A DNA stretch of 63,486 bases, filler included, from Octopus bimaculoides (taxonomy: Eukaryota): assembly GCF_001194135.2 (NCBI RefSeq). It is 7 parts of 7 records of this genome, joined end to end, with 100 filler letters (N's around TTAATTAATTAA, not from the genome) between each part and the next. Parts side by side here need not be neighbours in the genome. Positions count along the whole stretch, not along the records: positions 1 to 30,553 come from NC_068983.1; positions 30,654 to 38,344 come from NC_069000.1; positions 38,445 to 49,287 come from NC_068981.1; 4 more parts are not named here. One strand, 5' to 3'. This document shows, piece after piece, positions 993 to 46,669 of this stretch. Made by a program: the position numbers and the translations under genes. Below the pieces are notes generated by a model, which saw only the letters and a list, made by a program, of their open reading frames with translations, had not been told where the DNA came from and searched no databases. The stretch's first letter is position 1. Each line of letters starts with the position of its first letter.

Positions 993-1036
993 ACGCAACG
1001 TTTCGGCTGATATACCCTCCAGCCCTCATCAGGTGT
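993..1036 (-). ncRNA. Minimal type I hammerhead ribozyme motif (PLE-type)
   Basis: Minus strand ACAC-CUGAUGA-G-GGCUG(GAGGGUAUAU)CAGCC-GAAA-C-GU-U-GCGU: intact core, 5-bp stem II, palindromic ACGU stem III, stem I with one mismatch. Lies between 23-bp perfect inverted repeats (952-974, 1057-1079). Confidence 0.7.
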
Positions 1037-2490
1037 CTTGGGGAAATTTCGAACCTGGACAAATATCCGTCAAATGTAAATCATGTAAATAATGAACTAT
1101 ATTGGATTCTATACCAGAAGCTATTTTCAGTTTCCGTGAAGAGATCTCAGCTGAACTTCTGGCAATGACGTCATCGAAGGTTATCTGAAGTGACACAGCT
1201 TGCACTGATTGATGCAACACAAAATGCACAATATCGTATCCCTATGGGAGAGCTACAGGCTGGGTCGAAACGAAATACTAAATCCATCTCCCTTTTCCTT
1301 CATCAGTTATAAACTCAACAATCACTACGAATTTCCTAACGTAGATCCAGTGGAAATTATATCGTAACCCAAACGGTGAATGTGCTTTAATCGACATACT
1401 AATAGACATAGTAGCTATATATATATATATGCGAGTAAAAATAAATACAAAAAAATGGGGGTTTTGTATGATTGTGTATAGAGGAATATATTATTTTGTT
1501 TAAAAGAGTACCAACACTGTCTGATTTTTATGTTTTATTTATATTCCTGCAAAACCAATGTGGGATAGAATATGGAATATACAATATATAATATAATATA
1601 CAATATATAATATAAAATAAAAATGGATGGTACAATGAAGTAAAGTATTGAATGTCTTATTGAATATATGGAATATGTCTCATTGAATAGATGAAATATT
1701 GAGTGTTCAATATAAAGGATCACATATATAAAGGCGAATACGTATTTTCTATACCTTGTGGTATTNNNNNNNNNNNNNNNNNNNNNNNNNNNNNNNNNNN
1801 NNNNNNNNNNNNNNNNNNNNNNNNNNNNNNNNNNNNNNNNNNNNNNNNNNNNNNNNNNNNNNNNNNNNNNNNNNNNNNNNNNNNNNNNNNNNNNNNNNNN
1901 NNNNNNNNNNNNNNNNNNNNNNNNNNNNNNNNNNNNNNNNNNNNNNNNNNNNNNNNNNNNNNNNNNNNNNNNNNNNNNNNNNNNNNNNNNNNNNNNNNNN
2001 NNNNNNNNNNNNNNNNNNNNNNNNNNNNNNNNNNNNNNNNNNNNNNNNNNNNNNNNNNNNNNNNNNNNNNNNNNNNNNNNNNNNNNNNNNNNNNNNNNNN
2101 NNNNNNNNNNNNNNNNNNNNNNNNNNNNNNNNNNNNNNNNNNNNNNNNNNNNNNNNNNNNNNNNNNNNNNNNNNNNNNNNNNNNNNNNNNNNNNNNNNNN
2201 NNNNNNNNNNNNNNNNNNNNNNNNNNNNNNNNNNNNNNNNNNNNNNNNNNNNNNNNNNNNNNNNNNNNNNNNNNNNNNNNNNNNNNNNNNNNNNNNNNNN
2301 NNNNNNNNNNNNNNNNNNNNNNNNNNNNNNNNNNNNNNNNNNNNNNNNNNNNNNNNNNNNNNNNNNNNNNNNNNNNNNNNNNNNNNNNNNNNNNNNNNNN
2401 NNNNNNNNNNNNNNNNNNNNNNNNNNNNNNNNNNNNNNNNNNNNNNNNNNNNNNNNNNNNNNNNNNNNNNNNNNNNNNNNNNNNNNNNNN

Positions 2491-2504
2491 TTATTATTAT
2501 TATA

Positions 2505-2573
<69 letters not shown>
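2491..2573. repeat. (TTA)n microsatellite; a second array at about 2791-2893
   Basis: Direct reading. Confidence 0.95.
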
Positions 2574-2790
2574 GTTCAGTAGTTTTATTTTTATAACGTG
2601 CTTTCACTTCACTACCGAGCGCAGCTCTGTGTGCCTTGGGTATGTGCTGTGGTTTGCTGTGATGCTCTTATGTTTACCGTATTGAAAGTGTTTTGCGTAG
2701 GTATGTGTGCAGTGCCCAGTAGTGCAATTTTCTGTATGTTATATATATTTGTAAGTCCTGGTGTTTTTGTTATGTATTTGTCTGAATATT
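2574..2790 (-). mobile_element. R4/Dong-like RLE LINE, 3' end fragment
   Basis: Minus translation KTPGLTNIYNIQKIALLGTAHI matches the C-terminal IQK..LLGTAHI pattern of R4/Dong LINEs; followed by a 3' UTR and (TAA)n, with (TAA)n also at the 5' side. Confidence 0.7.
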
Positions 2791-2811
2791 TTATTATTAT
2801 TATTATTATTA

Positions 2812-2890
<79 letters not shown>

Positions 2891-3181
2891 TATGTATTTA
2901 TACTTACGTATATATATATGCATACATACATAGGCATACATATACGAACTTAGATTTATACACAAATAAATAATAACTAACTAAATGAATACATAAATGA
3001 AAAAAATATACCAGGATCCAAAGCCAGAAACTTTAGCAAGACATCTGTCAGAAACACACAGAATTGACCGAAATGATAATCGCCTTACTTAAAATAGGAT
3101 CAACAGAACGGAGATACGGAACGTTAAATTTACAGCATTATAGATAGATGATGTATATGTATATGTATATATATATATATG

Positions 3182-3218
<37 letters not shown>

Positions 3219-3236
3219 ACCGGTTACATTACAAAT

Positions 3237-3292
3237 CAGGCTGAAGAGAAATAGAGAGTCGGCAAGATTGTTAATTTTGAAACTGGTCCCTG
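3237..3292 (+). ncRNA. Minimal type I hammerhead ribozyme motif
   Basis: CAGG-CUGAAGA-GAAAU(21-nt loop)AUUUU-GAAA-CUGGU-C-CCUG: canonical core, 4-bp stem I, GUC cleavage triplet (cut after 3288). Confidence 0.7.
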
Positions 3293-5090
3293 TTTAATAA
3301 TGATTTTTTTCGGTGATTTTAAATGTCTTGCCCGCTTACGTTTTGGTATTCCGCTATATTTCATGTTGAGAACAATTTAGGTCTTAATAGACACAAGATG
3401 TGATCTATTTCTAGCACATTGAATGTCCACGTTAGTGGTCAACGTTATATATAAAAATGTACTTTAATCCCCTGAGATTGCAGATACTGTTTCTGAATCT
3501 CTTTGATTCTTTAAATGTGCTAGCTTCCTGGTAATTAATCGATATTAATTAATATATGATTTTTTACCCTATTTTTNNNNNNNNNNNNNNNNNNNNNNNN
3601 NNNNNNNNNNNNNNNNNNNNNNNNNNNNNNNNNNNNNNNNNNNNNNNNNNNNNNNNNNNNNNNNNNNNNNNNNNNNNNNNNNNNNNNNNNNNNNNNNNNN
3701 NNNNNNNNNNNNNNNNNNNNNNNNNNNNNNNNNNNNNTATATATATATATATTTATAAATATATATACACACACATATATACATGGTTATATAGATAGAT
3801 ACATATAAGTATAGAGTGTTTACGTAATAAGCTGCGATGGACGAGATTCAAGCAGCAAACAGCCGTGTTCCATGTCTAAAATATCAAAACAATGACATCT
3901 TTCTTACAGATTCGATGAGTTTGCGTCAATGTAAGATATTCCACCAAATTCTTCATTTTTACCCCCTGCCACGGGATATACATCAATGTTTCTGTCTGCA
4001 TGTGTGTTTGATTGTTTGTTTGTGTGTGTGTGTGTATGTGTGTGTATGTGTGTGTGTGTGTGTGTGTGTGCATGTGCGTATGTTTAACGTATGTGTAAGT
4101 TATAAATGGACACAAAATATTTGACCTGGTACAGGCTCAACAGAGAGAACATTGTCTAGTCACTTTCGTAGTAGACTGGTTCTGTCTCATAGCATATAGG
4201 CACACATACTAACACACACCCATTAACGCAATGAGTCGAGGTACACACATGTAATCATTATGAACATCACTTGTGCTTTCTGTCTCACTAAACATACACA
4301 CACACATTCATATGTATGACTCCGAGTGTGTACAAACACATATACATACATGTTTGCACATATACATACAAAAGGCGTGTTTTAGAACGTGTATATCTAA
4401 ATTAAGAAACTATCATTAGCTCTTATCTTCATATCGTGTACTTTTTTTTTTTTGTTGATCTTACCTATTTCTCTGTTATTTTGGTGCTTTGCGGTGGTTT
4501 AAGACCTTGGGTCTTATTTGTAGCAGGTTGATGCTTTTCTGCATCCTTATGCTTCGTGCTAATTTGTATATTTTAGCTTAATAATGCTATTTGCCTGCGA
4601 ACCACCTATGTTACTACTGTTGATACCATCAATTTTAAATTTTACCCGCTGATGATATTAACAGTAGTGACATCTTATTTCAAACCTTAGTGTTTGAATG
4701 TTTTGTCGATATGTGTGTGTGTGTGTGTGTGTATTTCCCCCTTTGTTTACAATTAACACGGAAAAAATAAATAAACAGTCACCAGGGTAGCAACAAATCA
4801 CACAAGTAAAAAGGGCGTAACACCTCCTTTACTCCTCCTCTTTCTATAGGCTACCTTTGACGTTATAGCCTCTAAGGCTTTTTTTTAAAAAACTTAATAG
4901 TATTCAGTTCATCACTATACATATCCATCATATTCTGTTAAAATGTTTTATTGACGAGTTTTATTTCTTCATTTCCCTGAACAGAAAATTACATTGTTGT
5001 ACACCATTTTATTCCTTTGGAATAATACCAATGATATCTTCGAAACATGTGTCGGAAGTAAAAGAATTTGAATAACACCTGCGTTTAACT

Positions 5091-5141
<51 letters not shown>

Positions 5142-5160
5142 NNNNNNNNNNNNNNATATA

Positions 5161-5680
5161 CACGGTGTCCCAAAAGTCACTGATGAGTTTCAATTTTCAA
5201 TAACTTCCTTAACTTTATAAATTTCGATACAATATAAAGGACATAATGGAAATTAATATGCACAAGTCAAATTTTGCAACACCACTACATCACATATGAA
5301 AGATGACCATCACTTAAGTGGCAGCCATTTTCGGCTTCGCACGCCCGTGCTCTTTCCAAAACTTGCATCATAACATCCTCAAGAGTTTCAGACCCCACTT
5401 CCCTGATTTCTCTATTGATGCTCTTCACTTGCACCAGTGTCTCCGGTTTGTTGACGTAAACTCTCTCTTTCATGTATCCCCACAAGAAAAAATCCGGGCT
5501 AGCCAAGTTTGGAGAACGTGAAGGCCAGTTGACATTGCCATTTCGGGAGATTAATCACTCTCTAAAGCACTGCTGTAGCAGCTGCCTTGTTTCTCTTGCG
5601 GTATGAGAAGTTGCTCAATCTTGCTGGAATCATGTATGAGGTCAACTTTGAATGGCCGGGAGCAAAAAGATCTCAATCAT
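5161..5680 (-). mobile_element. Tc1/mariner (IS630-Tc1) transposase 3' fragment with terminus
   Basis: Minus translation NWPSRSPNLASPDFFLWGYMKERVYVNKPETL matches the WP.RSPDL.P.DFFLWG motif; TA followed by CACGGTGTCCCAAAA TIR-like end at 5161. Confidence 0.85.
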
Positions 5681-5798
5681 GGATACCCGAAAAAAGGGTT
5701 TACGTCAACAAACCAGAGACCCTGGTACAACTGAAGGAGAACATCAATAAAGAAATCAGAGAAGTAGGTCTGAAACTCTTGAGGGTGTTATGATGCAA
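5680..5798 (+). mobile_element. Inverted duplicate of the Tc1/mariner C-terminal segment
   Basis: Reverse-complement match to 5363-5479 (KRVYVNKPETLVQLKENINKEIREVG). Confidence 0.8.
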
Positions 5799-6019
5799 TA
5801 TACATATGTAAATATCCAAATATTATTATATTATTATATTTTTATTTCATTATTTTTCTTTTGCTTGCCTACAATAAAGTATGTTATTCTCGGAGATTTT
5901 AAGGTAATAAAAAAGACTTGAGCGTCTATTTCTTACGGTGCGTGGTGAGGCATAAAGCCGACCTCTTGTGATGATTATGTATATAATAATAAAATACATA
6001 TGTAAATATGTATGTGTGG

Positions 6020-6070
<51 letters not shown>

Positions 6071-6135
6071 TATGCAAATAAATATATGTATATGTGTATA
6101 TATGTGTGTGTACGAATATATGTCACAATTTAGCT

Positions 6136-6240
6136 TGTTTCTAGATTTCTTTTGAATGGAGAAAGAATCGGTTTCTAACCTAGATTCAAGACTCCTTCAT
6201 TGAAATTTTAAACAAACTCAACAGTGTATTTGTGTATGCT
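6136..6240 (+). repeat. Short dispersed repeat, second copy at 32826-32921
   Basis: Shared AGAGAAAGAA(T/C)CGGTTTCTAACCTAGAT(T/C)CAAG core; both copies sit next to microsatellites. Confidence 0.7.
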
Positions 6241-6833
6241 TGTGTGTATTTGTACAATATTTGCAGTCAGTGCATGAGTAGATTTGTATGCTTTGTTTTT
6301 ATATGTATTCTCATGCATATAGTTGCATATTTAGACATTCGCATATGTACTTAAATGCTAAACCTTTGAAAAGTTCTACTTATTTTGACAGCCCCACTGA
6401 TGACTAGTATCTCTAACCTTCTAAATAGCGTTCTCTTTTCTGGTTCTGAAAACCCTAATTTCTGAAGATTGGTGCTGGGACAATTTGTTACATATTCTAG
6501 TACTCCAATAACTTCAAATAAACATCTGAACTAGTAATCCGGGTAGAGTTGCAGTAAATTTCTCGACAATTCAGCGTAGGTGTTTTCTTTTTCACTGATC
6601 TTTCTTTATCGCTTTTTCTCTCTATGTTGTCAACCTCTAGTCAACTGAATTCCACTAGTGTACATAATATCTCTTCTCTGTACCAAATTATTATGTGTAT
6701 TACGTTTGCATTTTACTGAGGTTTTCACTGAGACATTCCATCAGTACTCTTTCATATTATGAATGGTTATGGTCTCTACCACACTATGTGTTCTTATCTG
6801 TTTGGCCTCAGGATTATCCTTCCCACGGATCTC

Positions 6834-7495
6834 GGATCCTGTTCAAAACGGGGGCACCAGTTTTCATTTATGTTTTATGTAGTCTTTTTGGTACCGAAAG
6901 ACTTTCAAACTTCGTATACTTATCTATTTTGTGTTATAGAACAGAAAAAAAATTTTTGTATTCGGATTTATTTCATGTAAAAAATTGTCTTATTTCGATA
7001 ATTTCAACCAATCACTGACAAGTATTCAGCTGTTTACAGTTACTCTTAAGCGGTGTAAAGCGTATTTAATCTCCATTACTTCTGACATTTTGCAGAGGCA
7101 ACACACGTGTGTTCGTTTTCCCTAACCCTAACCCTAACCCTAACCCTAATTGACTAGCTCCTTCCCTCAAAAACCATGCCTTGTGCCTATAATAGAAAGG
7201 TTTATTAGCTACTGCCAATATGCTTCAGCCATTTTTTGACAAGGAAATAATAATTTTATCACCGCCGCGATTTGTTTATGTAGTCAGCACTTAATTTTTA
7301 CGGCTGAATGGACGTCAGTCATTGGTTGAAATTACATAAATACAACAACTTTAACATGAAATAACTTGCGATGTAGATTTTTTTGTTAAGAAGACTAAGA
7401 GAAAAAGATGTTTTATATGACACATTCTACCAGTGTCCCAAGTTTCAAAGTGTTTCGTTAAGAAAATACTGGTGCCTCCGTTTTGAACAAGATCC
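6834..7495. mobile_element. Non-autonomous TIR element, Merlin-like (GG termini, 8-bp TSD)
   Basis: 28-bp TIRs GGATC(C/T)TGTTCAAAACGG(G/A)GGCACCAGT (26/28 identical); exact TSD CGGATCTC at 6826-6833 and 7496-7503. Superfamily is inferred. Confidence 0.8.
7120..7149. repeat. Interstitial telomeric repeat (CCCTAA)5
   Basis: Five perfect CCCTAA units inside the TIR element. Confidence 0.95.
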
Positions 7496-8353
7496 CGGAT
7501 CTCATTGTACAGTGTCTTGGCTATTAGATCATGTGTCATCGGTTGATAATAGTGCGGTACTTTCGAACAGCTGCTTATGATGTGTGTGATATCTTCGGTG
7601 TTAACTCCACAACGTCTACATCGGTTACTATATTTTACTGTTTTACTTCCTGAGTCTCTATCCTTCTTGTGCATGAGGAATTTGATTGCTATTTCCTGTT
7701 CCTGAATTGTCAACGCATACCCTTCAAAGTAAAAGTTGGCGATCCGGTCGTTGGTCCATGATAGGCTGCTTTGCATGTATGTATGTATGTCTTATCTCAC
7801 ACATCTTGGAATTCTAACCTCACCTTTGGAACTATACTCGCAGATTCAACCTTACTTCTTAGAATTCTCCCGCACTACTATCGGATTACACTAGATATCA
7901 TTATTTTCGGTTTTCAACGCTCCACTTTCTTACAACCTTAACCACTTCTTTTCCATTTCTCCTGGACTTGTTCTTCATCTCCACCAACGTACTTATTCTC
8001 CAATTCCTCCTATCTTTTTTTTTTTTGCTTCATCTATATTTTTCTGTTTTTATCTGTCTAAATATTCGCACACTAGTTATAGTCTTACTGTTAACTAATG
8101 CATTACTCAATCAATAGATTATTAGTTTTACATTACTTTTTTTCCTCAAACTCCCGCAGCCTGTTCAATGATTTCCCACTCTGTAACTGATATTCTTTCC
8201 TTTTTATCTTTGCTATCTTGTAGATGCTAGCTGTTGGGAGTTATGTCATTGAAAAGGTAACACTGTATGATGAAAAACTTAAAGCTAACAATGAAACTGA
8301 AGTGAACTACAACTGGTGCATATGTCTACTGCAAAATGAACCTCCCAGAATAG

Positions 8354-8354
<1 letters not shown>

Positions 8355-8424
<70 letters not shown>
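8355..8424. repeat. (CA)n microsatellite
   Basis: Direct reading. Confidence 0.95.
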
Positions 8425-8429
<5 letters not shown>

Positions 8430-8689
8430 TATCTGGAAGAGTGAAAGAGAGAAAGCATATGCATGTGTCACGGAGAAAATGAGATTAAATATTCGCCCAT
8501 ATGAAAGTAGGAGGTGACGGTAGAGGAGGCTGCGCATGAAAATGTGTATTGAATTGTTGAATTGTTTGTTTTTCCCCTCTATATCCCTGCAATGATAACA
8601 GTTTTGTATACTTTGATTAAATGTTAACTCAAGTAGGTTAAAGTTGACAGATATTAGATATATATATAGCAACCCATTAATCAAACTAC

Positions 8690-8820
8690 CACTACAATTG
8701 CCGCTGCTGTTTCTGCCTCTACTACTACTACTACTACTACTACTATCATTACCATCACCAGCACCACAACCACCACCACCACCACCACCACCGCCACCGC
8801 TGCCGCTGCCTCTGCTGCTG

Positions 8821-8861
<41 letters not shown>

Positions 8862-8920
8862 GTTGTTGTTGTTGTTGTTGTTGTTGTTACTAATGTTGCT
8901 ACTGTCGCTGCTGCTGCAAC
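8690..8920. repeat. Compound trinucleotide array (CTA/CCA/CTG/TTG)
   Basis: Direct reading; source of the poly-L/poly-P pseudo-ORF. Confidence 0.9.
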
Positions 8921-9309
8921 GGTTCGTTGTTGAACTGCTCCAACAGATTAGAAAACTTTAAATTCACAAACAAAAGTATATATAGATAAATATTAAAATA
9001 AAATAGCAACTCAACAATGAACACTTGTTGTTAACAGCAATATTGATAAACATTTTATTTTTATCTCAGTCAATTCATAAAAATCAACGTTAAGTCTTGG
9101 TTACATCGTATTATAAAATATAAGCGATAATGTCTAACAGAGATAAGGACTCACATTTTGAGAGCAAAAAACAGTCTATTAAATTCACCACAGTACTTGA
9201 CTGCAACATATTTTATAAACCTTGGCAAGTTACAGTGCAAGGTTAAACAAAGCTTAACTAAATAGCGCGAAACATTGTCCAGCACTTTACAGTTCTAAAA
9301 ATGGTATTC

Positions 9310-9710
9310 GTACAAGGCTAGTAATTACAAAGAAGGCGGATGATTACATCGACCCAGTGCTCAACTGGCACTTATTTTGTCGACCCTTAAATAGATGTAA
9401 GGCAAAGTCGACCTCGGCGGAATTTGAACACAGAACGTAAAGACGGACGAAATGATGCTAAGCATTTTTCTCGGCGTACTAAAGTCCTATATATTGGTTT
9501 CAAATTTTGGCTCAAAGCCAGCAAGTTCGAGGGATGGTGCTAGTCGATTACATTGAACCTAGAACTTAACTGGTACTTGTTTTATGGACCCCGAAAGGAT
9601 GAAAGGCAAAGTCGACCCCACCGGCATTTGAACTATGAAAGTAAAGACTCACGAAATATCGTTAAACATTTTCCACAGTCTACTAACCTCTCTGCCAGTA
9701 CACCATCTTA
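9310..9710 (-). mobile_element. Two adjacent decayed copies of tRNA-derived SINE family C
   Basis: Reverse complements of the family-C central motif GTCGACTTTGCCTTTCATCCTTTCGGGGTC at about 9390-9420 and 9590-9620. Confidence 0.75.
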
Positions 9711-9879
9711 GTCCTGTAAATAATATTAAAAATGTCATAATAAAGCGATAGAAAGAAAAAAAATCTATATGGCGAATACTTGAAAAAAAGAATAAAGGAA
9801 AAGGGTAGAAAGAAACAGGAGCAAAGCCTTCCCTCTAGAAACCAGCATAGATCTGTAGCAAAGAATATATTAAGTAACT

Positions 9880-10600
9880 TCAGAATTTGTGGAGGCTGCG
9901 AAGAAATAATTAATTGTCTCTGTTTTTTTTTCAGGTTTAACTGAGAGAAACTATGTCTATAAGTATGACAGATTTTAAGAATTCATACACTGGAGGCTAC
10001 TCTGTGTTACAAGCTATAAACAGAAATAAGGTAGTTTAAACATATACTAGAGAATCTCTCAGAGGATGACACAAAGACTATACTCTACGAAGAAAATAAC
10101 GAGCAAGAGACCAACTTTCAGTGTAGCTAATACAATGAAACAACTGACCATATTGTTTCTGGTTGCTCAGTACTTGCAAAGTCCGAGAATATCCACAAAT
10201 ATGAGTCGACACGTGAATTGAAAATATGCTGGTATTTCTACCTGAACAGGGATAAAAAGTGGTATAATTATATACCTAACAGAATACATGACCACGACCT
10301 GATCAAGTATTCTGCAATATGCCTCTCCATACTGACAAGAGGATCAGTGACACACCACCCAGATATACTGATAGATATAATTATCAGTGAAAAGAACGAA
10401 ATTCTCTGTACATTTTCAGAACATTCTCAATCACTTCTGATCGCCTGAAATGTGGTGGAGAAAGAAACAAAGTACAAGAATTTTGTTACTGAATCAAGAA
10501 GAGTGAGAGGTATAAAAGTGACAACAGTACAAATAATAATTGAACCATTAAGTATGATAAAAAGATATGAACAAAAACTTATAAAACTCTTGTTTAAAGA
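9880..10600 (+). mobile_element. R4/Dong-like LINE CCHC-RLE remnant
   Basis: ETTDHIVSGCSVLAK, HHPDILID and EKETKYKNF...RRVRGIKVTTVQIII follow the order of R4/Dong knuckle and RLE motifs; many stops. Confidence 0.65.
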
Positions 10601-12915: not shown

Positions 12916-13435
12916 ATTGCATGGAAAAATGTGAGCATGAAAAGTAATATTCTTAAGATTATAAACCTGGAAAAGTACAGGACAAGTTATTACACCTGGA
13001 AAAGTATAGGACAAGCTATTACTTCAAGTAAAGTAACGATTAAGAAACTTTTTACTTAAAATATTGCAGCTAAAATTAAAATTTGAAAATTAAAACTTAT
13101 TTTATTATAGTTTACAAATAACACTATACTTATTTAAGTAGAATTTGGCTAATTTACTACCTTAAATACAGAAAAAAAGTGACTAATTGGACAAACTTAC
13201 AAATTAGCTGAACAGTTTTGTACAATAAATTTAAAAGATGAGAACTGCAAAGGGATAAATTAGAAGAACTGGCATTCTTTACTGCAATATTTTAAGTAAA
13301 AAGTTTCTTATTCTTTACTTTACTTGAAGTAATAGCTTGTCCTATACTTATACAGGTGTAATAACTTGTCCTGTGCTTTTCCAGGTTTATAATCTTAAGA
13401 ATATTACTTTTCATGCTCGCATTTTTCAATGTAAT
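12916..13435. mobile_element. Fold-back element with about 154-bp inverted arms
   Basis: Arms 12916-13069 and 13282-13435 nearly identical; each has two tandem about 29-bp ACCTGGAAAAGTA(C/T)AGGACAAG subrepeats; 212-bp AT-rich spacer. Confidence 0.85.
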
Positions 13436-13867
13436 AAAAATAAGTATAAAAATTACAAGCTTTTTAAAGATAAGGACGATATCGATAAAAACGATGTCAT
13501 TTCTGTTTGTTTTATTATACTCAAAAGATTAAGCTAAACACTTACTTGTATGTAAGGGTATGTAAAAGTATCTTAAGAGTATGTTCATCCAACTTGAAAA
13601 GTTGTCAAGACACCTATCGAACGGCAGGATGTATTCAGTAGTTTATCAGATAAAATGATAACGATTTCTAGGTCATAAATTTTGTGCGGAAGAGGTGAAA
13701 TCAACTGAACTAACTCCAGCATATGACTGGCATTTATTTATTCGACTCTAGAGTAACAAAAAAAATAACCCCGGTAGGATTTGAAGTAATTAGACATAAC
13801 TAAATACTTGAAAACACTCAACCAATACTGCCACCTCCGCTTTATAGGAACAAAGCCTCAAATTTGG

Positions 13868-15681
13868 TTGCTATGTCTTTTCGTCCGGCGTAACTTCGTC
13901 TTTTTGCCCGATGATTTTTTTGTCCAACGACTTTTTGTCCAATTTTAAATAAACTCTTTAGAAAACAAGGTGAAATATCTCTAATGATATATTCACAAAA
14001 CTATAACGATCCTCGTTCTAGGATTGTTATTATCCTTCTTTTTCCTTCTCTGTTAACAGTTTTACCTCCTCTTTTTCCTTCTCTCTCTTAAGTACGGTGC
14101 TGTGTATAGAGAGTGCTGCACATTTAGTGTACACATTTTTAATGTACCCATCCCGAAATGACAAAGTTCATAGTGTCGGCCGAAAACAAAAGAAAAGTAG
14201 CTGATGAAATTACAATTACGACTTTCATTCAAGCAATACAAAACTAGGAAAAGAATCCTGGAGATGTGAGAAAAGAAGAGTATGTTCAGTGCTAATTCAC
14301 ACCATAACGGAAAACAATGAGCCGAAAATTATTTATTTTTCTAGTAAGCACCTTCATCCAGCAGATGTAGATTCGTTAAATGCTAGAAAAGCAGTTTCAG
14401 AAATAAAGCATGAAGCGGTGGAAAACAGAGCAACAAGTTCGCGTAGCATAATAACGGCTAAGTTTACGCAGCTAACAGAAAATACTTGCTCACAACTTCG
14501 TCGTTTACCTGTACTTTCCAGGATTATTCAAAGGTGCCGACAAAAAAAAATCTGGATTTCTCGCTAATCCAGGGGCTAGAACTGATTTTGAAATACCTGA
14601 TGAATATTATAAACTTGATAATGGCGAACAGTTTCTGAGATACGATTCGGGTATCGAGGATCAACAACGCCTACTAGTATTTGCATCAGAAAGTGCTCTT
14701 TAGAATATAGCATCATATCATCATTGGGTATGTGATGGAACGTTCAAAGTTGTGTCAGAACAGTAACACAGTTCATGTACAAGTTAAAGGCAGCAGTTTT
14801 CCCCGGGTCTTTGCATTACTGCCGAATAAAACAAAGCGGATATATGAATTATTTTTCGAGCAATTTAAAATTATGCAACCTAATGCATATCCGCTTGATC
14901 ACAAGGCAGATTTCGAAGTTGCAGTTCATAAAGCATTTAATTCATCATTCCCTAATTCATCTATTGTGTAATGTTTGTTTCATTTGAGCCAGTCAGTGTT
15001 TTGAAAGATTACAGATTTAGGCCTCAAAGTAAAATACAATAAAAACTCTGAATTCTGTCTTAAAATTCGATGTTTTTCAGCATTAGCCTTTCTACTCGTC
15101 GAAGATGTCGAAGAGGTCTATGAAGAACGAATAGACGACGAACAAATACCTGCTGAATTCATCGCTTACTTCGACTGACTTTGTAAGGCATTGTGAGAGG
15201 ACGTGATGCTAGACGAAGGAGAGAACCACCTACTTTCCCGAAAGCTGTATGGAATGTTAATCAGAACAAATAATGCTGCGGAGGGGTTTCATTTGGCGAT
15301 AAAGCGTTCGGCGGGTGTGGCACATTTGGATATTTCGAAATTAATCAAAACTCTGAAGGAAGAGGAAGGGTAAAATGACTCAAGTTCTTCGAGGAGATCC
15401 TGAATATGGGTCGACAAGAAAAAACTGAAGAGTAATAAATCATTAGTTATATGATTACTTTTTTAAAATGACTTTTTTAAAATACATTTTTACTTGAAGC
15501 CTATCAATAAAATTCTCAATGATCATTTGATTTTCATGTTCATCTTGTTTTCTAAGGAGTTTTTCTAAAATCGGACAAAATGTTGGACAAAAAAAAATCA
15601 TCGGACAAAAAGACATCGGACGAAAAGACGTGGACGAAGTGACGTTGGACAAAGTAACATCGGATGAAAAGTCGGGTCACG
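13868..15681 (+). mobile_element. Mutator-like (FLYWCH-MULE) transposon, pseudogenised, both TIRs present
   Basis: WRCEKR..C...HLHP (FLYWCH), WVCDGTFKV, FALLPNKT, DFEVAVHKAF...CLFH (MULE DDE); about 100-bp TIRs of TTTTCGTCCG-type subrepeats; AAATTTGG on both flanks (13860-13867, 15683-15690). Confidence 0.9.
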
Positions 15682-15792
15682 GAAATTTGGTAGGTGGGGG
15701 ACTAGTCGATTATATCGATTCCAGTACTCAGCTGGTACTTATTTTATCGACCCCGAAAAAAGGAAAAGCAAAGTCGACCTCAGTGGAATTTG
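15682..15792 (-). mobile_element. SINE family C, host of the MULE insertion (remainder at about 13845-13867)
   Basis: Reverse complement of the family-C 3' half continues across the MULE. Confidence 0.7.
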
Positions 15793-15859
15793 TATAGTAA
15801 TGATGATAATGAGGATGAACATATCTACGTGGAAATTACTTTAAATGTACTAAGAGTTA

Positions 15860-19132: not shown

Positions 19133-19135
19133 GTA

Positions 19136-19293: not shown

Positions 19294-20089
19294 ATTGTAC
19301 ACCCAGTATAAAGAACCCCGTATTTTCTGATATCTTCTATCTCATCAGCGCAATATTTTGTTAGATCTCATCCTATTAATGACATCCAACTAAAATCACA
19401 ATTACTACAGGGTATTTTAGGTAACTTATTTGGTTGTTGAACATAATTAGAGTATATATAATTCAGTTAAGAGATATAGTTTACGAAGTTAAACATACAC
19501 ACACGTACACACTTACACTCTTATATACATGTATGAATAATGTATATCTTTTCGACAAAACCTTGTGTTTCCTTCTTTAGCCCACAAAGTCAGAGATGTG
19601 CACTCAACACTAGCCAATCCTCATTCGTCATTAGACTTTCTCTATGACAAAATCAGCAGCTTCTCTAAATCTCACGTTGCATCATTAACTTCTGAAATGT
19701 ATGCTTTTGTAAAACTCCCCAAATACGATAAGGATCTGTGCCATGACTTTCATAATTCAAAACAATTGCCATAAGTGTATTCAGTTTCTCAAACCATGTC
19801 CAATCAAAATCAGCCTTTTTCAACGCTTATGCATATATGCATGCATGTGTATATGTGTCTTCATGTACACATGCGCGCGCGCATACACACACACATACAC
19901 ACATATATTTAAGCAAAATAGCTAGTTATAAAATATCAATAAGAGATAGAGTAGTAACGTACACTAAACAGTAACGCGAGTAGCCACATCAAAGTGGCAG
20001 ATGAATGTTACCACTAGTTTAACCCCAGGCGGATCCTCCGCCACCTGGTTTTCGGTGCAAGCTTTGCACCCTTTATATACAATATATCG

Positions 20090-20134
20090 CGCGGCTGATG
20101 TGAGCCAAATAGCTCGAAACTGGCCGGTCCCGCG
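20090..20134 (+). ncRNA. Type I hammerhead motif, copy 1 (A9U variant)
   Basis: CGCGG-CUGAUGU-GAGC(CAAAUA)GCUC-GAAA-CUGGCCGGU-C-CCGCG; predicted cut after 20129. Confidence 0.75.
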
Positions 20135-20326
20135 ATCCTGTCAGCTGCTAGGAGATGGTAGGGGTTCGCTCCTCCTGCTAGCGATATATTGTATATAAAC
20201 GGTGAAGAGCATTCACCGAAAACCAGCTGGTGGAGAAACTACCGGGGGTTAAACTGGTAGTAACATTCATCTGACACTTTGATGTGGCTAATCGCTTCAC
20301 TATTTAGTATACGTTACTACTCTATC

Positions 20327-20712
20327 GTGGAGACGCAATGGCCCAATGGTTAGAGCAGCGGACACGCGGTCATAAGATCGCAGTTTCGATTCCCAGACCG
20401 GGCGGTTTGAGTGTTTATTGAGCGAAAACACCTAAAGCTCCACGAAGTTCCGGCAGGGGATGGTGGCGAACCCTTCTGTACTCTTTCGCCACAACTTTCT
20501 CTCACTCCTACTTCCTGTTTCTGTTGTACCTGTAATTCAAAGGGTCAGCCTTGTCACACTTTGTCACACTGAATATCCTCCGAGAACTACGTTAAGGGTA
20601 CACATGTCTGTGGAGTGCTCAGCCACTTGCACGTTAATTTCACGAGCAGGCTGTTCCGTTGATCGGATCAACTGGAACCCTCTTCGTCGTAAGCGACGGA
20701 GTGCCAACAACA
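20327..20712 (+). mobile_element. Full-length tRNA-derived SINE family A
   Basis: A box TGGCCCAATGG, B box GTTTCGATTCC, (CAA)n tail, TSD ACTACTCTATC at 20316-20326 and 20713-20723. Confidence 0.95.
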
Positions 20713-20840
20713 ACTACTCTATCTCTTCTTGAGATTTTATAACTAGCTATTTTGCTTGTTGCAAATCAGTGACCGATGGTCACTTTACAATATACCGCTG
20801 GCAGAAGCGGATTTAGATATCGCTCCACTGCGCAGGTGTG

Positions 20841-20885
20841 CGCGGCTGATGTGAGCCAAATAGCTCGAAACTGGCCGGTCCCGCG
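20841..20885 (+). ncRNA. Type I hammerhead motif, copy 2 (A9U variant)
   Basis: Identical to copy 1; predicted cut after 20880; upstream CAGGUGUG retained. Confidence 0.75.
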
Positions 20886-21191
20886 ACCCAGACAGCTGTT
20901 GAGAGATAGTAGGGATTCGCTCCCCTGCTAGTGATATATTGTATATTAAGGGTGCAGAGCTTGCACCGAAAACCAGCAGATGGAGAATCCGCCTGGAGTT
21001 AAACTAATAGTAACATTCATCTGCCACTTTGATGTGGCTACTCGCTTTACTATATATATATATATATATAAATAAAAGATAAACAAGAGTGAAAAAACTA
21101 CAGAAGGCTTGTGTTACATGGTTAAAGTATATATTTAAATTATGTCAAAAAAATGTTATAAAATTTTTTTGGTATATAAACATTGTATTTG

Positions 21192-21230
21192 GAGAAATAA
21201 CCGGTTTCGTGTTGTCATTTCAAATTTCTC
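21192..21230 (-). ncRNA. Degenerate minimal hammerhead in the PLE 3' region
   Basis: Minus: stem I GAGAAAU/AUUUCUC (7 bp), GAAA, palindromic ACCGGU stem III; the CUGANGA box and stem II are damaged (UUGAAAUGACAACAC). Confidence 0.4.
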
Positions 21231-21450
21231 TACTTCATGGTAACATGTCTTCGCTCCCGTGTGTAAATAAAAGAGTTCTAGATAGGGGGAGGTAATTAGG
21301 GATTCCTTCCGGTATAAGGGAGATAATCGAAATGTAGAAGGTGATAGATTTTGATTAATTTATCATGGTTTGGTTTACAATGAATAGTATGTCAGCTTTT
21401 GTTCTATATTTTTTTCCTCTCAGTGAGGTGAATTTCCTTATTTAAGAGTG

Positions 21451-22018
21451 TTAGCAATGGTTAAGTTTGGGTTTATATTTTTGAATGAAGAAGGTTTCCT
21501 TATTTAATCTAATTTGTGTTGGTGTACTAATGGCACATTGATAGAATGGAAAGATTATAAATTGTGGTAGCATTTGTTTTGCGGATTTCTCAATATGCTC
21601 ACTAAAGGGTATCATTCGGTATTCTGGGCATGCAATCTGCCGTCGATGCAGAGTGCATCTGCGTCTGAGCGTTAATCCTGTGGACCCTATGTAATTTTTG
21701 TGGCAGCCCGAGCATCTTATCACATAAGTAAGGTTTTCTGAGGCACAAGTAAAGTCAGATTTAACTTTGAATTTTTGTCCCTCTTTGAAGAGGAATTCTG
21801 AACCTTCTAGAAGGTTTGGGCATGTTGCGCAATTTGGTCGACCACATTTTTTCACTTTTGCATCTGTTATTTTGGAAAATAATTTTGCCTTTGTGAGGAT
21901 CTTTTTCAGTGATTTTGGTTGTTTGTAGCTTTTAATGATTTTGTGTGTGTGTAAAATTTCCTTTAATTTGGGGTCCTTATGTAGTATTGGTATGTTTTGT
22001 CAGATTTTAAAAGAAATC
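21451..22018 (-). mobile_element. Penelope-like element, GIY-YIG endonuclease region (5'-truncated)
   Basis: CGRPNCATC...TCASENLTYVIRCSGCHKNYIGSTGLTLRRRCTLH...SEH...KETFFIQKYKPKLN: GIY-YIG with Cys/His zinc motif; 3' UTR extends to about 21070. Confidence 0.9.
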
Positions 22019-22019
22019 A

Positions 22020-22037
22020 TCATGATCATCATGATCA

Positions 22038-33686: not shown

Positions 33687-34515
33687 ATATATATATATAT
33701 ATACATATATATATCCGTATATATATGAAACTTCGAAGTCTCATATTGTCGTTCAATCCTCAAAATGAGGAGTAGATGGACATCCGACAACTGATGAAGG
33801 GTCGTTCTTTATGTTACTTGTCCTGTTTTCCATTTGTATCTCTTGTTGTTTGCGTACTCAACTCGTTTGTTTTCGTATTTCATATGTATGTATACATATA
33901 TGCACACACACAGACACACACACACACACACACACAAATATATATATACACATGTAACACGTGCATTCATATATACATAAATATATATATATATTTATAT
34001 GCATGCATAACTATATCTATATACATAAGTATATATATATATGTATATATACATTAATATATATACATATACATACATGCATATATGCATATATATATAT
34101 ACACATAAATATCTCTCTCTATGTATATACATCTATGTATATACACGTGTGTATGTGTTTGTATGCATGTATATATGTGAGAGAATAGTTTCAGTGTTAA
34201 TAGTGAAAGTATTAAACTGAAAGTATTATCTCACATTACAATAGAGATGTTATTGTTTCCCTTTTGACACGTAATAATGAAATAATGTAAGAGATAAGAG
34301 ATTGCTCCGGGTTCGTATTAGGCAAGAAGCTGAAACTTTTTGGGCCCATGACACTGCATGGACCCTAAGTAATGCATGTGTAAAATTTAAATGGAATCAG
34401 TTTGGTAGTTCTCGAGTTTTAGTGATGCACACATACAGAAACACAGAGAGACAGAAACAGATTTTCTGTTATATATATATCAAGGTGAGACACACATAAG
34501 AAAGAAGGAAACAAA

Positions 34516-34560
34516 GGACCACTGATGAGGTCACAGAAGTGTGACGAAAGAACTCTGGCC
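34516..34560 (+). ncRNA. Minimal type I hammerhead with fully canonical core
   Basis: GG(A)CCA-CUGAUGA-G-GUCAC(AGAAGU)GUGAC-GAAA-G(AA)CU-C-UGGCC; predicted cut after 34555. Confidence 0.7.
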
Positions 34561-35026
34561 GAAATAAGATTAAGATTAATGTAATATAAAGCTGAAGCAA
34601 ATTAACACCAAATATACAGTGCGTGTGTTTTTATTGGCTAAACTGGCAATATGACCATCCCCAAGTACANNNNNNNNNNNNNNNNNNNNNNNNNNNNNNN
34701 NNNNNNNNNNNNNNNNNNNNNNNNNNNNNNNNNNNNNNNNNNNNNNNNNNNNNNNNNNNNNNNNNNNNNNNNNNNNNNNNNNNNNNNATATATATATATA
34801 TATACACATACACTTCGTGTTGTATCTGGTTTGCGAAATTTCTTATGAGAATCTGTATTGAAACAAATCTTGTGTCTGGAGAGAGCTATAATGCCTTAAT
34901 ATAACATACTTACCTGTTCAATTTCTACTCATTTATTAACTCGTTGGAAATTGAACCGGTGAATGTGTTATACTAGGGCACTAAGCCCACCCCTCCCCAG
35001 GTAACAATATTATACATACATACATA

Positions 35027-38502: not shown

Positions 38503-38507
<5 letters not shown>

Positions 38508-39078: not shown

Positions 39079-39466
39079 TGTGTGTGTTGGCACTCCGTCG
39101 CTTATGACGTCGAGGGTTCCAGTTGATCCGATCAACGGAACAGCCTGCTCGTAATATTAACGTGCAAGTGGCTGAGCACTCCACAGACATGTGTACCCTT
39201 AACGTAGTTCTCGGGGATATTCAGCATGACACAGTTTGACAAGGCTGACCCTTTGAATTACAGGTACAACAGAAACAGGAAGTAAGACTGAGAGAAAGTT
39301 GTGGTGAAAGAGTACAGCAGGGTTCGCCACCATTCCCTGCCGGAGCTTCGTGGAGCTTTAGGTGTTTTCGCTCAATAAACACTCACAACGCCCTGTCTGG
39401 GAATCGAAACCGTGATCCTATGACCGCGAGTCCACTGCCCTAACCACTGGGCCATTGCGCCTCCAC
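39079..39466 (-). mobile_element. Full-length SINE family A
   Basis: 12-bp TSD ACAGTACACTGG at 39067-39078 and 39468-39479; (AC)n tail. Confidence 0.95.
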
Positions 39467-42007: not shown

Positions 42008-42056
<49 letters not shown>

Positions 42057-43120: not shown

Positions 43121-43162
<42 letters not shown>

Positions 43163-43932: not shown

Positions 43933-43971
<39 letters not shown>

Positions 43972-44019
43972 TCATTTGGGTAAGCCTAATTAGATAGAAT
44001 TATTGTTTTACATATCTTC

Positions 44020-45250
44020 CACACATTCTGTTGTTTTGGTATTCTGTTTCATTTTATATTTTTGATACTTTGATTGGTAGGATTTGATCTTGTATAATTT
44101 GACTTCAGATCTGAGTTCTGCATTTTGCAACTAGTAACGTGTTTCCCTTCTTTATTCACTTCTGATGTGTTCAGTCTTTTTAGATATTGGCCATGTTAAA
44201 TCTGTTACTGTTGCTTTAGAATCGCATTCAGTAATGCTATTTCTAGTTAAAGCTTCAGTTATTATTGTTTGCTATTTAATAATTTCTGTTGTTCCTTTTT
44301 ATCAGTTTTCCTCACAACTGTCTGTTAACTGAGGCATAAGCTTTAGACTGGTTAGCTTCCTTGAAACAAACAAAAAAAAACCCCAACTAACTAAGAATAA
44401 AATGTTTTTTCTGTTTTGATCATTTTGTAGTTATTTACATTAATAACGCATTAATCTCTACTACATAATTTTGTAGTGTTACAGCATATATCTTATAATT
44501 ATTCCTCAATTGTGAAATATCCCATACCTCCCTATGAATAAAGCAAATATCTTTCTGTGTCAGATTTTGGGTAGTTTACTCTAAATGCAGTCATTACATT
44601 TATTGATTTCCTGTCTAGCTTCGTTATTTCAATTGCCATTCAATTGAGAATATTATAAATTCAGCTTTTAACTTGGACAGCTAAAATATTTAGACTTATT
44701 ACCTTATTTTGAATAATTTTTAAATATTAATGCTATACGTCAACAATATTTCTTGTTAACCTTTCTTTGGTTTGTGCCTATTCTATTCATTCTATTAATT
44801 CACAAGTATTTGTAAATATGCCTTTATTTTTATTCATGTATTTCGCTTTCTTCATTTAACCCGGCATTTTCTTAAATAATATTCTTAAATAATATTCTTC
44901 TCTTTATGATTTCCTCGACTCAGACCATTTCTATTCCACTTAGAATATCTAGTTATCGTTTTGTTGATCAATAACTGATCTTTATAATTATATTTACTCT
45001 TCGTGACAGCCCTTCTGTCTTTCAGGAAATGCATATTTTTCCTAGGTGAGCACTTACATATATTGTCGGAGTTTGTATAATGAGAGCATGCAGGTTAAGG
45101 GCGTTTAATGTTTATATTAATGACCTGTAGGGACACGGTATTTCTTTGTGCAACCATAATATACTACAAAGTATATTAAATCACTTGTTAAGGTTATCTC
45201 CACAGATTTTCAATACAAATTCTAGCCAGCACTGATTTTGTAGTATATTA
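44020..45250 (-). mobile_element. R4/Dong-like LINE reverse-transcriptase remnant
   Basis: PERQKGC, KDQLLINK, LDRKSINVMTAFRVNYPKSDTERY...GGMG and HGQYLKRL follow the R4/Dong RT motif order. Confidence 0.75.
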
Positions 45251-45305
45251 TGGTTGTGTAACGGAATACGGTGTCCCTACAAGTCATGGATATTTATGTA
45301 CCAGC

Positions 45306-45490
45306 AACGCGGTGAGCTGGTAGAAACGTTAGCGCGCCGGGCGAAATGCTTTGCGGTATTTCGTCTGTCTTTACGTTCTGAGTTAAATTCCGACGAGGTC
45401 GACTTTGCATTTCATCCTGGGGTCGATCTAATCGACTGACTCCTTCCCCAAACATTTCGGGCCTTGTGCCTAGAGTAGAAAAGAATATTT
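45306..45490 (+). mobile_element. SINE family C with internal deletion
   Basis: The two GGGGTCGAT motifs of the family are collapsed into one. Confidence 0.88.
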
Positions 45491-45669
45491 ACGTACCAGC
45501 TTCCAAAAATGAGTTTAATATGTAAAATACAATAACAAACACTGCTATAAGTAGTGTATATATATATATATATATATATGGGAGAATATACAAATAATAA
45601 CAACAGACGAGGACAGGTGGTGTAAATAACAAAAGTATATATTAGTATGACGCTCGGGAATACGGAAAG

Positions 45670-45706
45670 TCTTTGACGTTTCGAGCTTCGCTCTTCAACA
45701 GAAAGA
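45670..45706 (-). ncRNA. Minimal type I hammerhead motif (A6U variant)
   Basis: Minus: UCUUU-CUGUUGA-A-GAGC(GAA)GCUC-GAAA-CGU-C-AAAGA; 5-bp stem I, palindromic stem III, GUC triplet. Confidence 0.65.
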
Positions 45707-46617
45707 ATACGGAGACAAGGAGAAAAACACGGAGAAAAAAAATTGAATAGTGTTCAGTCAACGGTCAATCATAATAATGGCCGATCATAACAATGGCTGA
45801 CCGGAAGTTAGAAATTCTTATTTCAGGAGAGCTAAGAAAGGGGNNNNNNNNNNNNNNNNNNNNNNNNNNNNNNNNNNNNNNNNNNNNNNNNNNNNNNNNN
45901 NNNNNNNNNNNNNNNNNNNNNNNNNNNNNNNNNNNNNNNNNNNNNNNNNNNNNNNNNNNNNNNNNNNNNNNNNNNNNNNNNNNNNNNNNNNNNNNNNNNN
46001 NNNNNNNNNNNNNNNNNNNNNNNNNNNNNNNNNNNNNNNNNNNNNNNNNNNNNNNNNNNNNNNNNNNNNNNNNNNNNNNNNNNNNNNNNNNNNNNNNNNN
46101 NNNNNNNNNNNNNNNNNNNNNNNNNNNNNNNNNNNNNNNNNNNNNNNNNNNNNNNNNNNNNNNNNNNNNNNNNNNNNNNNNNNNNNNNNNNNNNNNNNNN
46201 NNNNNNNNNNNNNNNNNNNNNNNNNNNNNNNNNNNNNNNNNNNNNNNNNNNNNNNNNNNNNNNNNNNNNNNNNNNNNNNNNNNNNNNNNNNNNNNNNNNN
46301 NNNNNNNNNNNNNNNNNNNNNNNNNNNNNNNNNNNNNNNNNNNNNNNNNNNNNNNNNNNNNNNNNNNNNNNNNNNNNNNNNNNNNNNNNNNNGGAAGGTA
46401 GAGTAGGAGTGTGTTGGGGTGTGGTGGGATGAGCTTATGAGGGGGTGTTGACGAGGAGGGAGAAGGGGAAGGTGGATGTAAGAGAGGGGGAAGATGGGTA
46501 TGGGAGGGGAGAGGAAGAGAGGAGAGAGGGTGGGTATAAGAGAGGGAAGGTGGATTGAGAGAGTCACGTATGTAGTGACTGTTTATACCATGATTTTGTG
46601 GATGATTAATGGGTTGG

Positions 46618-46669
46618 ATGGGTACTGATGAAGGAGCAAAAACTCCCGAAATATGGCATATACACCCAT
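46618..46669 (+). ncRNA. Type I hammerhead motif
   Basis: AUGGGUA-CUGAUGA-A-GGAG(CAAAAA)CUCC-C-GAAA-UAUGGCAUAU-A-CACCCAU; canonical core, near-palindromic stem III, AUGGGU/ACCCAU stem I. Confidence 0.6.

What the first reader, a model, noticed from the sequence alone, without database searches (positions are those of the whole stretch)
993..46669. Window-wide census: eight hammerhead-like motifs from about six unrelated families
Seen: motifs at 993-1036(-), 3237-3292(+), 20090-20134(+), 20841-20885(+), 21192-21230(-, degenerate), 34516-34560(+), 45670-45706(-) and 46618-46669(+). They share the core boxes, complementary stem I arms and mostly short or palindromic stem III, but differ in stems and flanks; several abut microsatellites. 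Established: minimal hammerheads with palindromic stem III mark PLE termini and can cleave as dimers. Inference: about one motif per 8 kb; if representative, the genome holds a very large, diverse hammerhead repertoire that could cut intronic pre-mRNA.
Basis: partly seen in the sequence, partly recalled or inferred. Interest (0 to 1): 0.75.

Follow-up and report, generated by a model that had tools for sequence, protein, structure and literature searches.

The report
Penelope retroelement hammerhead tails, seven families
The eight self-cutting-RNA (hammerhead) motifs are real and sit in the tail ends of seven common jumping-gene families of the Penelope type, a known arrangement; this window holds several times more of them than the genome average, and they likely rarely cut host transcripts.

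Summary
All eight motifs are at the stated places and far exceed shuffled controls (7 versus a mean of 0.3 at score 18 or more). They belong to seven dispersed repeat families with about 600-10,000 first-look candidates each. Three families are 3' ends of GIY-YIG Penelope-like elements (PLEs). Three are non-coding 360-545-nt retrozyme-like units. One is a SINE with a tRNA-like promoter head, a hammerhead, and PLE-type inversions and tail.

The window is not representative. In 675 kb of random genome the rate is one scoring motif per about 40-60 kb (one per 25 kb counting decayed family copies), roughly 30,000-80,000 in all, not about 250,000.

Intronic cutting is unsupported: five of the eight carry core or junction defects, most are solitary and dimer-dependent, and three RNA-seq runs show no read ends piling at the cut sites tested. 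PLE hammerheads are well described, and this scan found such families before on other pieces of this genome and a similar SINE in another genome. The parts worth keeping are the PLE-type tRNA-headed SINE and a young family spreading with an A6U core.

The parts
891..1094 (-). F1 insertion: 5'-truncated copy of a tRNA-headed hammerhead SINE, with an inverted 5' piece (1057-1094), the ~35-nt tail and a 10-bp target duplication (881-890, 1095-1104). The head is missing in this copy.
993..1036 (-). Hammerhead 1 (F1): canonical core, extra base after A9, 4-nt palindromic stem III, mismatch at the second pair of stem I (most family copies pair there)
3222..3576 (+). F2 copy next to (TA)31, running into an assembly gap; family 92-98% identical, unit period 543-547 nt in 2 of 15 loci
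3237..3292 (+). Hammerhead 2 (F2): canonical core, long stem II domain, G-U at 10.1-11.1, wobble-palindromic stem III (exact palindrome in most family copies)
19905..21050 (+). F3 insertion: inverted 5' arm (about 19905-20090) plus about 1.6 tandem units of ~362 nt, ending in (TA)10
20090..20134 (+). Hammerhead 3 (F3): U at core position 9 (family trait), 10-nt near-palindromic stem III
20327..20714 (+). Unrelated abundant tRNA-type SINE inserted into the F3 unit with an 11-bp target duplication; stretches the hammerhead spacing from ~362 to 751 nt
20841..20885 (+). Hammerhead 4 (F3): identical to hammerhead 3; the only tandem pair in the window
21072..21999 (-). F4: 5'-truncated 3' end of an EN+ PLE; GIY-YIG frame at 21451-21999 with a CX4CX2C linker; tail-to-tail with F3 in the same (TA)n
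21192..21230 (-). Hammerhead 5 (F4): U3-A8 core covariation (family trait), 1-bp stem II, palindromic stem III, private A9U change
34478..34669 (+). F5: 3' end of a young (96-99%) EN+ PLE, starting at (AT)n and running into a gap
34516..34560 (+). Hammerhead 6 (F5): canonical core, extra G after A9, bulged stem I, short non-palindromic stem III
45579..46563 (-). F6: 3' end of a young (99%) EN+ PLE with a long C/T-rich 3' UTR, spanning the gap 45844-46392 and ending in (TA)11; nested inside F7
45670..45706 (-). Hammerhead 7 (F6): U at core position 6 (family trait), extra A after A9, 4-nt palindromic stem III
45114..45293 (.). Likely the upstream part of the F7 insertion (inverted piece plus unit start), separated from the rest by a SINE and by F6
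   Evidence: the joining of the two parts is inferred
46569..46791 (+). F7: old (82-88%) non-coding family, unit period 392-414 nt in 4 of 15 loci
46618..46669 (+). Hammerhead 8 (F7): canonical core boxes, but mismatches at the first pair of stem I and the base of stem II

Best explanation
The eight motifs are hammerhead sequences carried in the 3' terminal repeats of seven repeat families, three of them ending GIY-YIG endonuclease frames of Penelope-like elements, and all seven were likely spread by Penelope enzymes. Shown: family membership, endonuclease frames upstream in F4, F5 and F6, head-to-tail or inverted partial copies in all families but F6, the optional tail in F1 and F5, and (TA)n contacts. 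Inferred from published PLE biochemistry: the protein nicks AT-rich DNA, starts reverse transcription near the RNA 3' end and usually stops early or folds back. The 3' 200-1000 nt holding the hammerhead is therefore the part most often left behind. F2, F3 and F7 are likely non-autonomous retrozyme-type derivatives, and F1 is likely a Pol III SINE using the same machinery. The ribozymes are predicted to need a second copy or the PLE protein to cut. Single decayed copies in host transcripts would mostly stay uncut, so the census reflects retroelement debris rather than a host RNA-cutting system.
For: F4: GIY-YIG frame 220 nt upstream of the motif (Pfam E 7e-4, below cut-off), 10,717 candidates, motif region in 12 of 25 EN-selected loci. 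F5: 9 of 25 EN-selected loci carry the hammerhead downstream; 15 of the other 16 hit a gap or contig end; GIY-YIG E 0.019. F6: one locus reads (TA)n, EN frame, gap, C/T-rich UTR, gap, F6 3' end, (TA)n. Inverted pieces in 12 of 15 F1 and 6 of 15 F2 loci; periods of 543-547 (F2), 269-384 (F3) and 392-414 nt (F7). Tail in 32 of 62 F1 3' ends. These traits match PMC8557442. U3-A8 and the extra base after A9 are described PLE traits (PMC4209133). No end pile-ups at the cut sites laid. 5' truncation points do not cluster at the cut site in 18 F6, 4 F5 and 16 F1 non-selected hits. The anole PLE hammerhead needs protein, and uncut RNA is the insertion substrate (PMC11167929).
Against: No full-length RT-EN frame was recovered for any family. 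The three EN matches are below Pfam's cut-off, and the F6 link crosses two gaps in a single locus. No autonomous partner was found for F1, F2, F3 or F7. The RNA test is weak: three unstranded runs of one study, 6% of each read, only F3, F4, F5 and a diverged F6 copy laid. F5 depth falls from about 560 to 376 across the bins holding the cut site; a diverging subfamily may explain it, and the direction is opposite to what poly(A) selection of cut RNA would give, but I could not resolve it. Some animal type I hammerheads cut well as monomers (coral, PMC7229834 passages).
Confidence: 0.88

Rival explanations
1. One reading: the motifs form a genome-wide set of active ribozymes that cut intronic pre-mRNA and shape host gene expression.
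For: Tens of thousands of motifs exist. F2 and F5 copies mostly keep a canonical core (14 of 16 and 6 of 6 distinct aligned copies). F4 and F5 sequences occur in RNA-seq reads. Xenopus retrozymes are depleted in genes, which hints at a cost (bioRxiv 10.64898/2026.07.22.740005).
Against: Five of eight window copies have a core change or junction mismatch (3, 4, 5, 7, 8). Six are solitary. No end pile-up at cut sites. All 177 reads over position 21217 carry the family base, not the window's. Min-HHR monomers were inactive and dimers weak (PMC4209133); 8 of 9 Xenopus dimers did not cut. Intronic location was not shown.
Confidence: 0.06
2. F2, F3 and F7 are currently expressed retrozymes: tandem transcripts self-cleave and are ligated into 360-545-nt circles that serve as templates. 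This can hold alongside the best explanation.
For: Head-to-tail continuity and unit sizes as in known non-LTR retrozymes (PMC7229834). Units fold more stably as circles than crude doublet shuffles (z -1.6 to -5.6 in 7 units). F2 is young with an intact core.
Against: F3 depth is only 0-11 per strand, zero over hammerhead 4, and no unit-length go-back joint is among the 15 of 38 joints shown. F3 has U9 and F3/F7 copies are 80-88% alike, so old.
Confidence: 0.3
3. The tRNA-like head of F1 belongs to the terminal repeat of a protein-coding PLE, so F1 copies are stumps of that element and not a separate SINE.
For: Earlier scan notes report this layout in other genomes (unchecked). Short-read gaps hide full-length PLEs here.
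Against: Among 62 F1 3' ends no pair shares sequence beyond the tail. Among 33 with a head, shared upstream sequence is inverted F1 except for one pair with 177 shared bases. Copies start at the head within a few bases.
Confidence: 0.2
4. The motifs are chance matches to a short consensus in AT-rich, repeat-rich DNA.
For: Loose descriptors are at chance level; Rfam cut-offs are not reached; about a third of random-sample hits at score >=16 are expected by chance.
Against: 7 versus 0.275 in shuffles; each motif is kept across its family at a fixed place near the 3' end.
Confidence: 0.01

Closest known systems
Minimal type I hammerheads in pLTRs of metazoan EN+ Penelope-like elements (Cervera and de la Pena 2014, PMC4209133; parts 1-2 of 4 read)
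   Same: Palindromic or absent stem III, extra base between 9 and 10.1, U3-A8 variant, many consensus families per genome, mostly single motifs from truncated PLEs, inverted pairs.
   Different: Reported counts are 2,000-9,000 per genome (Schistosoma, coelacanth, Xenopus) with a different descriptor; the estimate here is 30,000-80,000. Family-wide U6 (F6) and U9 (F3) cores are not in the parts I read.
EN+ PLE insertion anatomy: Neptune/Nematis-type linker, partial tandems, inverted 5' copy, 30-40-bp tail, (TA)n targets (Craig et al. 2021, PMC8557442; passages, section 11, one supplement search)
   Same: CX2-5CxxC linker before GIY-YIG in F4 and F5; inverted copies, tail and (TA)n ends.
   Different: Clade not assigned by a tree; no RT linked to these copies was recovered.
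Metazoan non-LTR retrozymes (PMC7229834 passages; bioRxiv 10.64898/2026.07.22.740005 parts 1-3 of 5)
   Same: Non-coding 360-545-nt hammerhead units in head-to-tail arrangement (F2, F3, F7), regarded as non-autonomous PLE derivatives.
   Different: Mostly monomers or 1.2-1.6-mers with inversions here, not long arrays; abundant circles not shown.
Schistosoma Sm-alpha / Sj-alpha SINE-like elements (seen only through review PMC6765202 passages)
   Same: Pol III promoter plus hammerhead in a short non-coding retroposon (F1).
   Different: Those propagate from tandem repeats, with the promoter ending up at the 3' end of the cut unit. F1 copies are dispersed monomers that keep the head upstream of the uncut hammerhead and carry PLE-type inversions and tail.
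PAc (Poseidon of Anolis), PMC11167929 (main text section read whole)
   Same: Supplies the mechanism: AT-rich nicking, two RT start sites that give the tail, uncut RNA as substrate, no reads ending at the cut site.
   Different: A different clade and host; nothing was assayed for these families.

Membership tests
Type I minimal hammerhead (PLE min-HHR) | Core boxes CUGANGA and GAAA with an NUH site and stems I and II in type I order | tested here: met
   All 8 have the layout; canonical boxes in 4 (1, 2, 6, 8), U3-A8 plus private U9 in 5, U9 in 3 and 4, U6 in 7
Type I minimal hammerhead (PLE min-HHR) | Short self-complementary stem III allowing a dimer | tested here: met
   7 of 8 self-pair (duplex -1.7 to -16.3 kcal/mol); motif 6 does not (+1.4)
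Type I minimal hammerhead (PLE min-HHR) | Self-cleavage at position 17 | not testable with these tools
   RNA-seq shows no end pile-up, which is a weak test
Rfam hammerhead families | Score at or above the gathering cut-off | tested here: not met
   Best HH9 31.3 and 29.2 bits versus 52, among 150 of 275 rows listed
EN+ Penelope-like element (F4, F5, F6) | C-terminal GIY-YIG endonuclease upstream of the hammerhead-bearing 3' repeat | tested here: met
   Pfam PF01541 E 7e-4, 0.019 and 0.0013, all below cut-off; linkage (F6 across gaps in one locus)
EN+ Penelope-like element (F4, F5, F6) | Telomerase-like RT in the same frame | tested here: inconclusive
   Five longer regions fetched ended in gaps or truncations
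EN+ Penelope-like element (F4, F5, F6) | 5' truncation, inverted or tandem partial copies, optional tail, (TA)n targets | tested here: met
   Truncation and (TA)n ends in all three; inverted copies in F4 and F5 (1 of 15); optional extension in F5; no inverted copy among 15 F6 loci
Non-LTR retrozyme (F2, F3, F7) | Non-coding unit of a few hundred nt with one type I hammerhead, head to tail | tested here: met
   Periods in 2 of 15, 6 of 20 and 4 of 15 loci; longest frame 45-46 codons in two F2 units; coding capacity of F3 and F7 units not tested the same way
Non-LTR retrozyme (F2, F3, F7) | Abundant linear and circular unit-length RNA | tested here: inconclusive
tRNA-derived SINE (F1) | 5' head with Pol III A and B boxes at tRNA spacing, fixed 5' end | tested here: met
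   Both boxes visible in head-selected loci, about 43 nt apart, consensus recalled; 20 of 30 such loci carry the hammerhead downstream
tRNA-derived SINE (F1) | Head homologous to a tRNA | tested here: inconclusive
   No ARAGORN call in 15 loci, no Rfam tRNA match; not compared with the genome's own tRNAs
tRNA-derived SINE (F1) | 3' end shared with an autonomous partner; Pol III transcription | not tested
   No partner found among fetched loci; no dedicated search was made

The most novel reading that the evidence does not exclude
F1 is a true SINE of about 300 nt (tRNA-like Pol III head, (AAT)n spacer, hammerhead, PLE tail) mobilised by Penelope enzymes rather than a LINE, in thousands of copies. 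Together with F6, which is spreading at 99% identity with U in place of the near-invariant A6, it gives natural evidence that PLE hammerheads can be kept as a protein-bound fold while cutting is dispensable.
Probability: 0.55. Interest if true: 0.55.

Novelty: new member of a known kind. Interest (0 to 1): 0.32.

Why it matters
The census mainly shows that this genome, probably an octopus, is rich in Penelope debris: an estimated 30,000-80,000 hammerhead-type motifs, none described for octopus in the papers I could search (the giant squid paper lists 235 Rfam hammerhead hits). What PLE hammerheads do is an open question (PMC8557442, PMC11167929). Young families with canonical (F2, F5), U3-A8 (F4) and U6 (F6) cores in one genome allow a direct comparison of cutting rate with transposition success. 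F1 would extend the LINE-SINE partnership to Penelope elements. A pervasive host RNA-cutting role would be important, but nothing here supports it.

Tried and rejected
Rfam scan: swamped by microRNA matches to microsatellites; no hammerhead at cut-off among listed rows. Loose two-change descriptor: chance level. Run search with F2: no RNA holder listed; three raw RNA runs came by species label. Relaxed ARAGORN gave 113 noise calls. Protein search with the 78-aa F5 C-terminus found nothing, pairwise comparison with the F6 EN was not significant, and the Atlas gave no answer; the frame was identified only from longer genomic copies. Clustering of 5' truncations at the cut site: not seen. One end pile-up (X23, L080:241, 6 molecules) is about 50 nt from the nearest cut site and in one run only; rejected. 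RNA go-back joints at the F5 ends involve (AT)n and were taken as artefacts. Lunse et al. (about dimeric PLE hammerhead variants) is not held and may already list U6 or U9 cores or cephalopod examples. Perreault 2011 passages give A6C (kobs below 0.1/min) and no A6U or A9U. Searches for a Penelope-mobilised SINE in print: searches returned 2, 1, 0 and 3 papers; from the listings and the passages read (PMC6765202, PMC6962438) only the schistosome precedent emerged. bioRxiv supplements were not seen.
Full report
Setting. The window is a pack of seven stretches with 6,503 N. The three that hold motifs map to contigs C3, C20 and C1 of a 2.34-Gb genome. Microsatellite load, SINE types and genome size suggest an octopus; this is my inference, shared by earlier scan notes.

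Observation. All eight motifs are present. An untuned descriptor recovers 1 of them at strict settings and 4 with one core change, against shuffle means of 0.03 and 0.83; with two changes it is at chance level. A scored descriptor that allows the extra base after A9, a stem I bulge and U3-A8, tuned on these motifs, gives 7 hits at score >=18 against 0.275 in 40 shuffles. Rfam reaches no cut-off among the 150 of 275 rows listed. Only motifs 3 and 4 resemble each other in the window, so there are seven families and seven insertions.

Families. Own-genome searches gave these first-look candidates, of which 40 were scored (150 for the protein): F1 2,674, F2 2,072, F3 631, F4 endonuclease 10,717, F5 1,336, F6 1,231, F7 1,781. 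These are lower-bound indicators, not copy numbers. Alignments of 13-22 copies per family show the motif kept in each.

Three families are PLE 3' ends. F4: a GIY-YIG frame ends 220 nt upstream of motif 5. Ten of the 12 other aligned copies have the U3-A8 core with A9 intact, so the 'degenerate' motif is a described variant (PMC4209133) plus one private change. F5: walking upstream reaches an endonuclease C-terminus without a gap. Nine of 25 EN-selected loci carry the hammerhead downstream, and 15 of the other 16 meet a gap or contig end; Pfam GIY-YIG E 0.019. F6: a long C/T-rich UTR runs through the window's gap to 46563, and locus L252 shows EN frame, gap, UTR, gap and F6 3' end between (TA)n tracts. 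That link rests on one gapped locus. No full RT-EN frame was recovered for any family.

Three families are non-coding units. Same-strand periods are 543-547 nt (F2, 2 of 15 loci), 269-384 nt (F3, 6 of 20) and 392-414 nt (F7, 4 of 15), with frequent inverted 5' pieces. The window's F3 insertion is an inverted arm plus about 1.6 units; a SINE with an 11-bp target duplication stretches the hammerhead spacing from ~362 to 751 nt. This matches non-LTR retrozymes, described as non-autonomous PLE derivatives.

F1 is a SINE-like chimera. Of 30 loci chosen by the head alone (one is the query), 20 carry the hammerhead downstream of an (AAT)n spacer, 6 match a strict core pattern and 16 have an inverted piece upstream. 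The head shows A and B boxes at tRNA spacing (consensus recalled) but is not called by ARAGORN or Rfam. Twelve of 15 tail-selected loci have inverted pieces, and 32 of 62 3' ends carry a ~35-nt tail beyond which no pair shares sequence. Inversion plus optional tail is the PLE signature (PMC8557442, PMC11167929). Earlier notes describe a similar element in another genome and warn that such heads can belong to coding PLEs; my test found no coding context but could miss it in gaps.

Density. Eighty random 10-kb stretches hold 674,906 called bases. Descriptor hits were 27, 15 and 13 at scores >=16, 18 and 20, against shuffle means of 8.7, 4 and 3 (three shuffles). That is one per 37-67 kb above chance, or 29,000-54,000 per genome (intervals spanning 11,000-90,000). 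Family profiles found 27 copies covering the motif, many decayed and 17 of them F6-type: one per 25 kb, about 79,000 (52,000-115,000). Resampling puts the window in the upper tail (P <=0.0024 for the descriptor, 0.026 for profiles). Tuning on the window and choosing this window for its motifs both favour such a result, and families absent from the window are undercounted. The sample also shows further families (L175, L193, L161, L137, L129), so 'diverse' holds.

Activity. Motifs 2 and 6 look intact and motif 1 nearly so; motifs 3, 4, 5 and 7 have core changes and motif 8 has two junction mismatches. U6 is a family trait of F6 (21 of 24 distinct matches); A6C is reported as slow (PMC3088659). 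U9 is in 15 of 15 fixed-length F3 matches, while two longer copies outside that pattern keep A9. Seven of eight stem III strands self-pair. In three unstranded RNA-seq runs of one study (6% of each read), no molecule ends piled up on 19905-22030. F3 was nearly silent, and 177 of 177 reads at 21217 had the family base rather than the window's. F5 was covered 270-570 deep with no pile-up at its cut site. These runs cannot exclude low-level cutting. Published data point the same way: inactive monomers and weak dimers, a protein-assisted ribozyme with uncut RNA as substrate, and 8 of 9 frog dimers inactive. Whether the stretches are intronic was not determined.

Verdict. The genome-wide rate is overstated about 3- to 8-fold, and the pre-mRNA-cutting idea has no support. 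The class is known. The F1 SINE and the A6U family are the parts worth a bench test.

Noticed in passing
   Followed up: partly
window 45114-46791: Nested insertions: an old F7 copy appears split by a SINE (about 45306-45490) and by the young F6 element.
   Followed up: partly
window 21051-21071: F3 (+) and F4 (-) end tail to tail in the same (TA)10 tract.
   Followed up: yes
window 12916-16514: Inverted repeats (12916-13074 with 13278-13435; 13898-13974 with 15539-15614), 29-nt subrepeats and a FLYWCH zinc-finger frame at 14208-14567 (E 5e-5): probably a Mutator-type DNA transposon remnant.
   Followed up: no
window 20327-20714, 28096-28371, 39085-39466, 61654-61893: Abundant tRNA-type SINE, 2,000-4,000-fold depth per strand in RNA-seq.
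   Followed up: no
L161:3300-3800 (-), L193:3531-3636: F3-related tandem family with a different hammerhead (about 380-nt spacing); cores read CUGA or CCGA, 3' halves resemble F3.
   Followed up: partly
L175 near 9880 (-): High-scoring U3-A8 hammerhead with an 8-nt near-palindromic stem III, from a family not in the window.
   Followed up: no
L271:4253-4792 (-): Frame resembling the RT C-terminal part of a PLE about 5 kb upstream of stretch 1 (by eye; no Pfam match).
   Followed up: no
L195:5640-5930 and 7260-7550: Two identical F6 3' ends 1.6 kb apart on either side of a gap; may be an assembly duplication.
   Followed up: no
L282 and L300: Two F1 loci share 177 nt upstream of the head that is not inverted F1; unexplained.
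   Followed up: no
window 7351-7791 (-), 10131-10448 (+), 17342-17740 (-): Short frames resembling LINE remnants; zf-RVT E 0.004 for the first, no Pfam match for the others.
   Followed up: no
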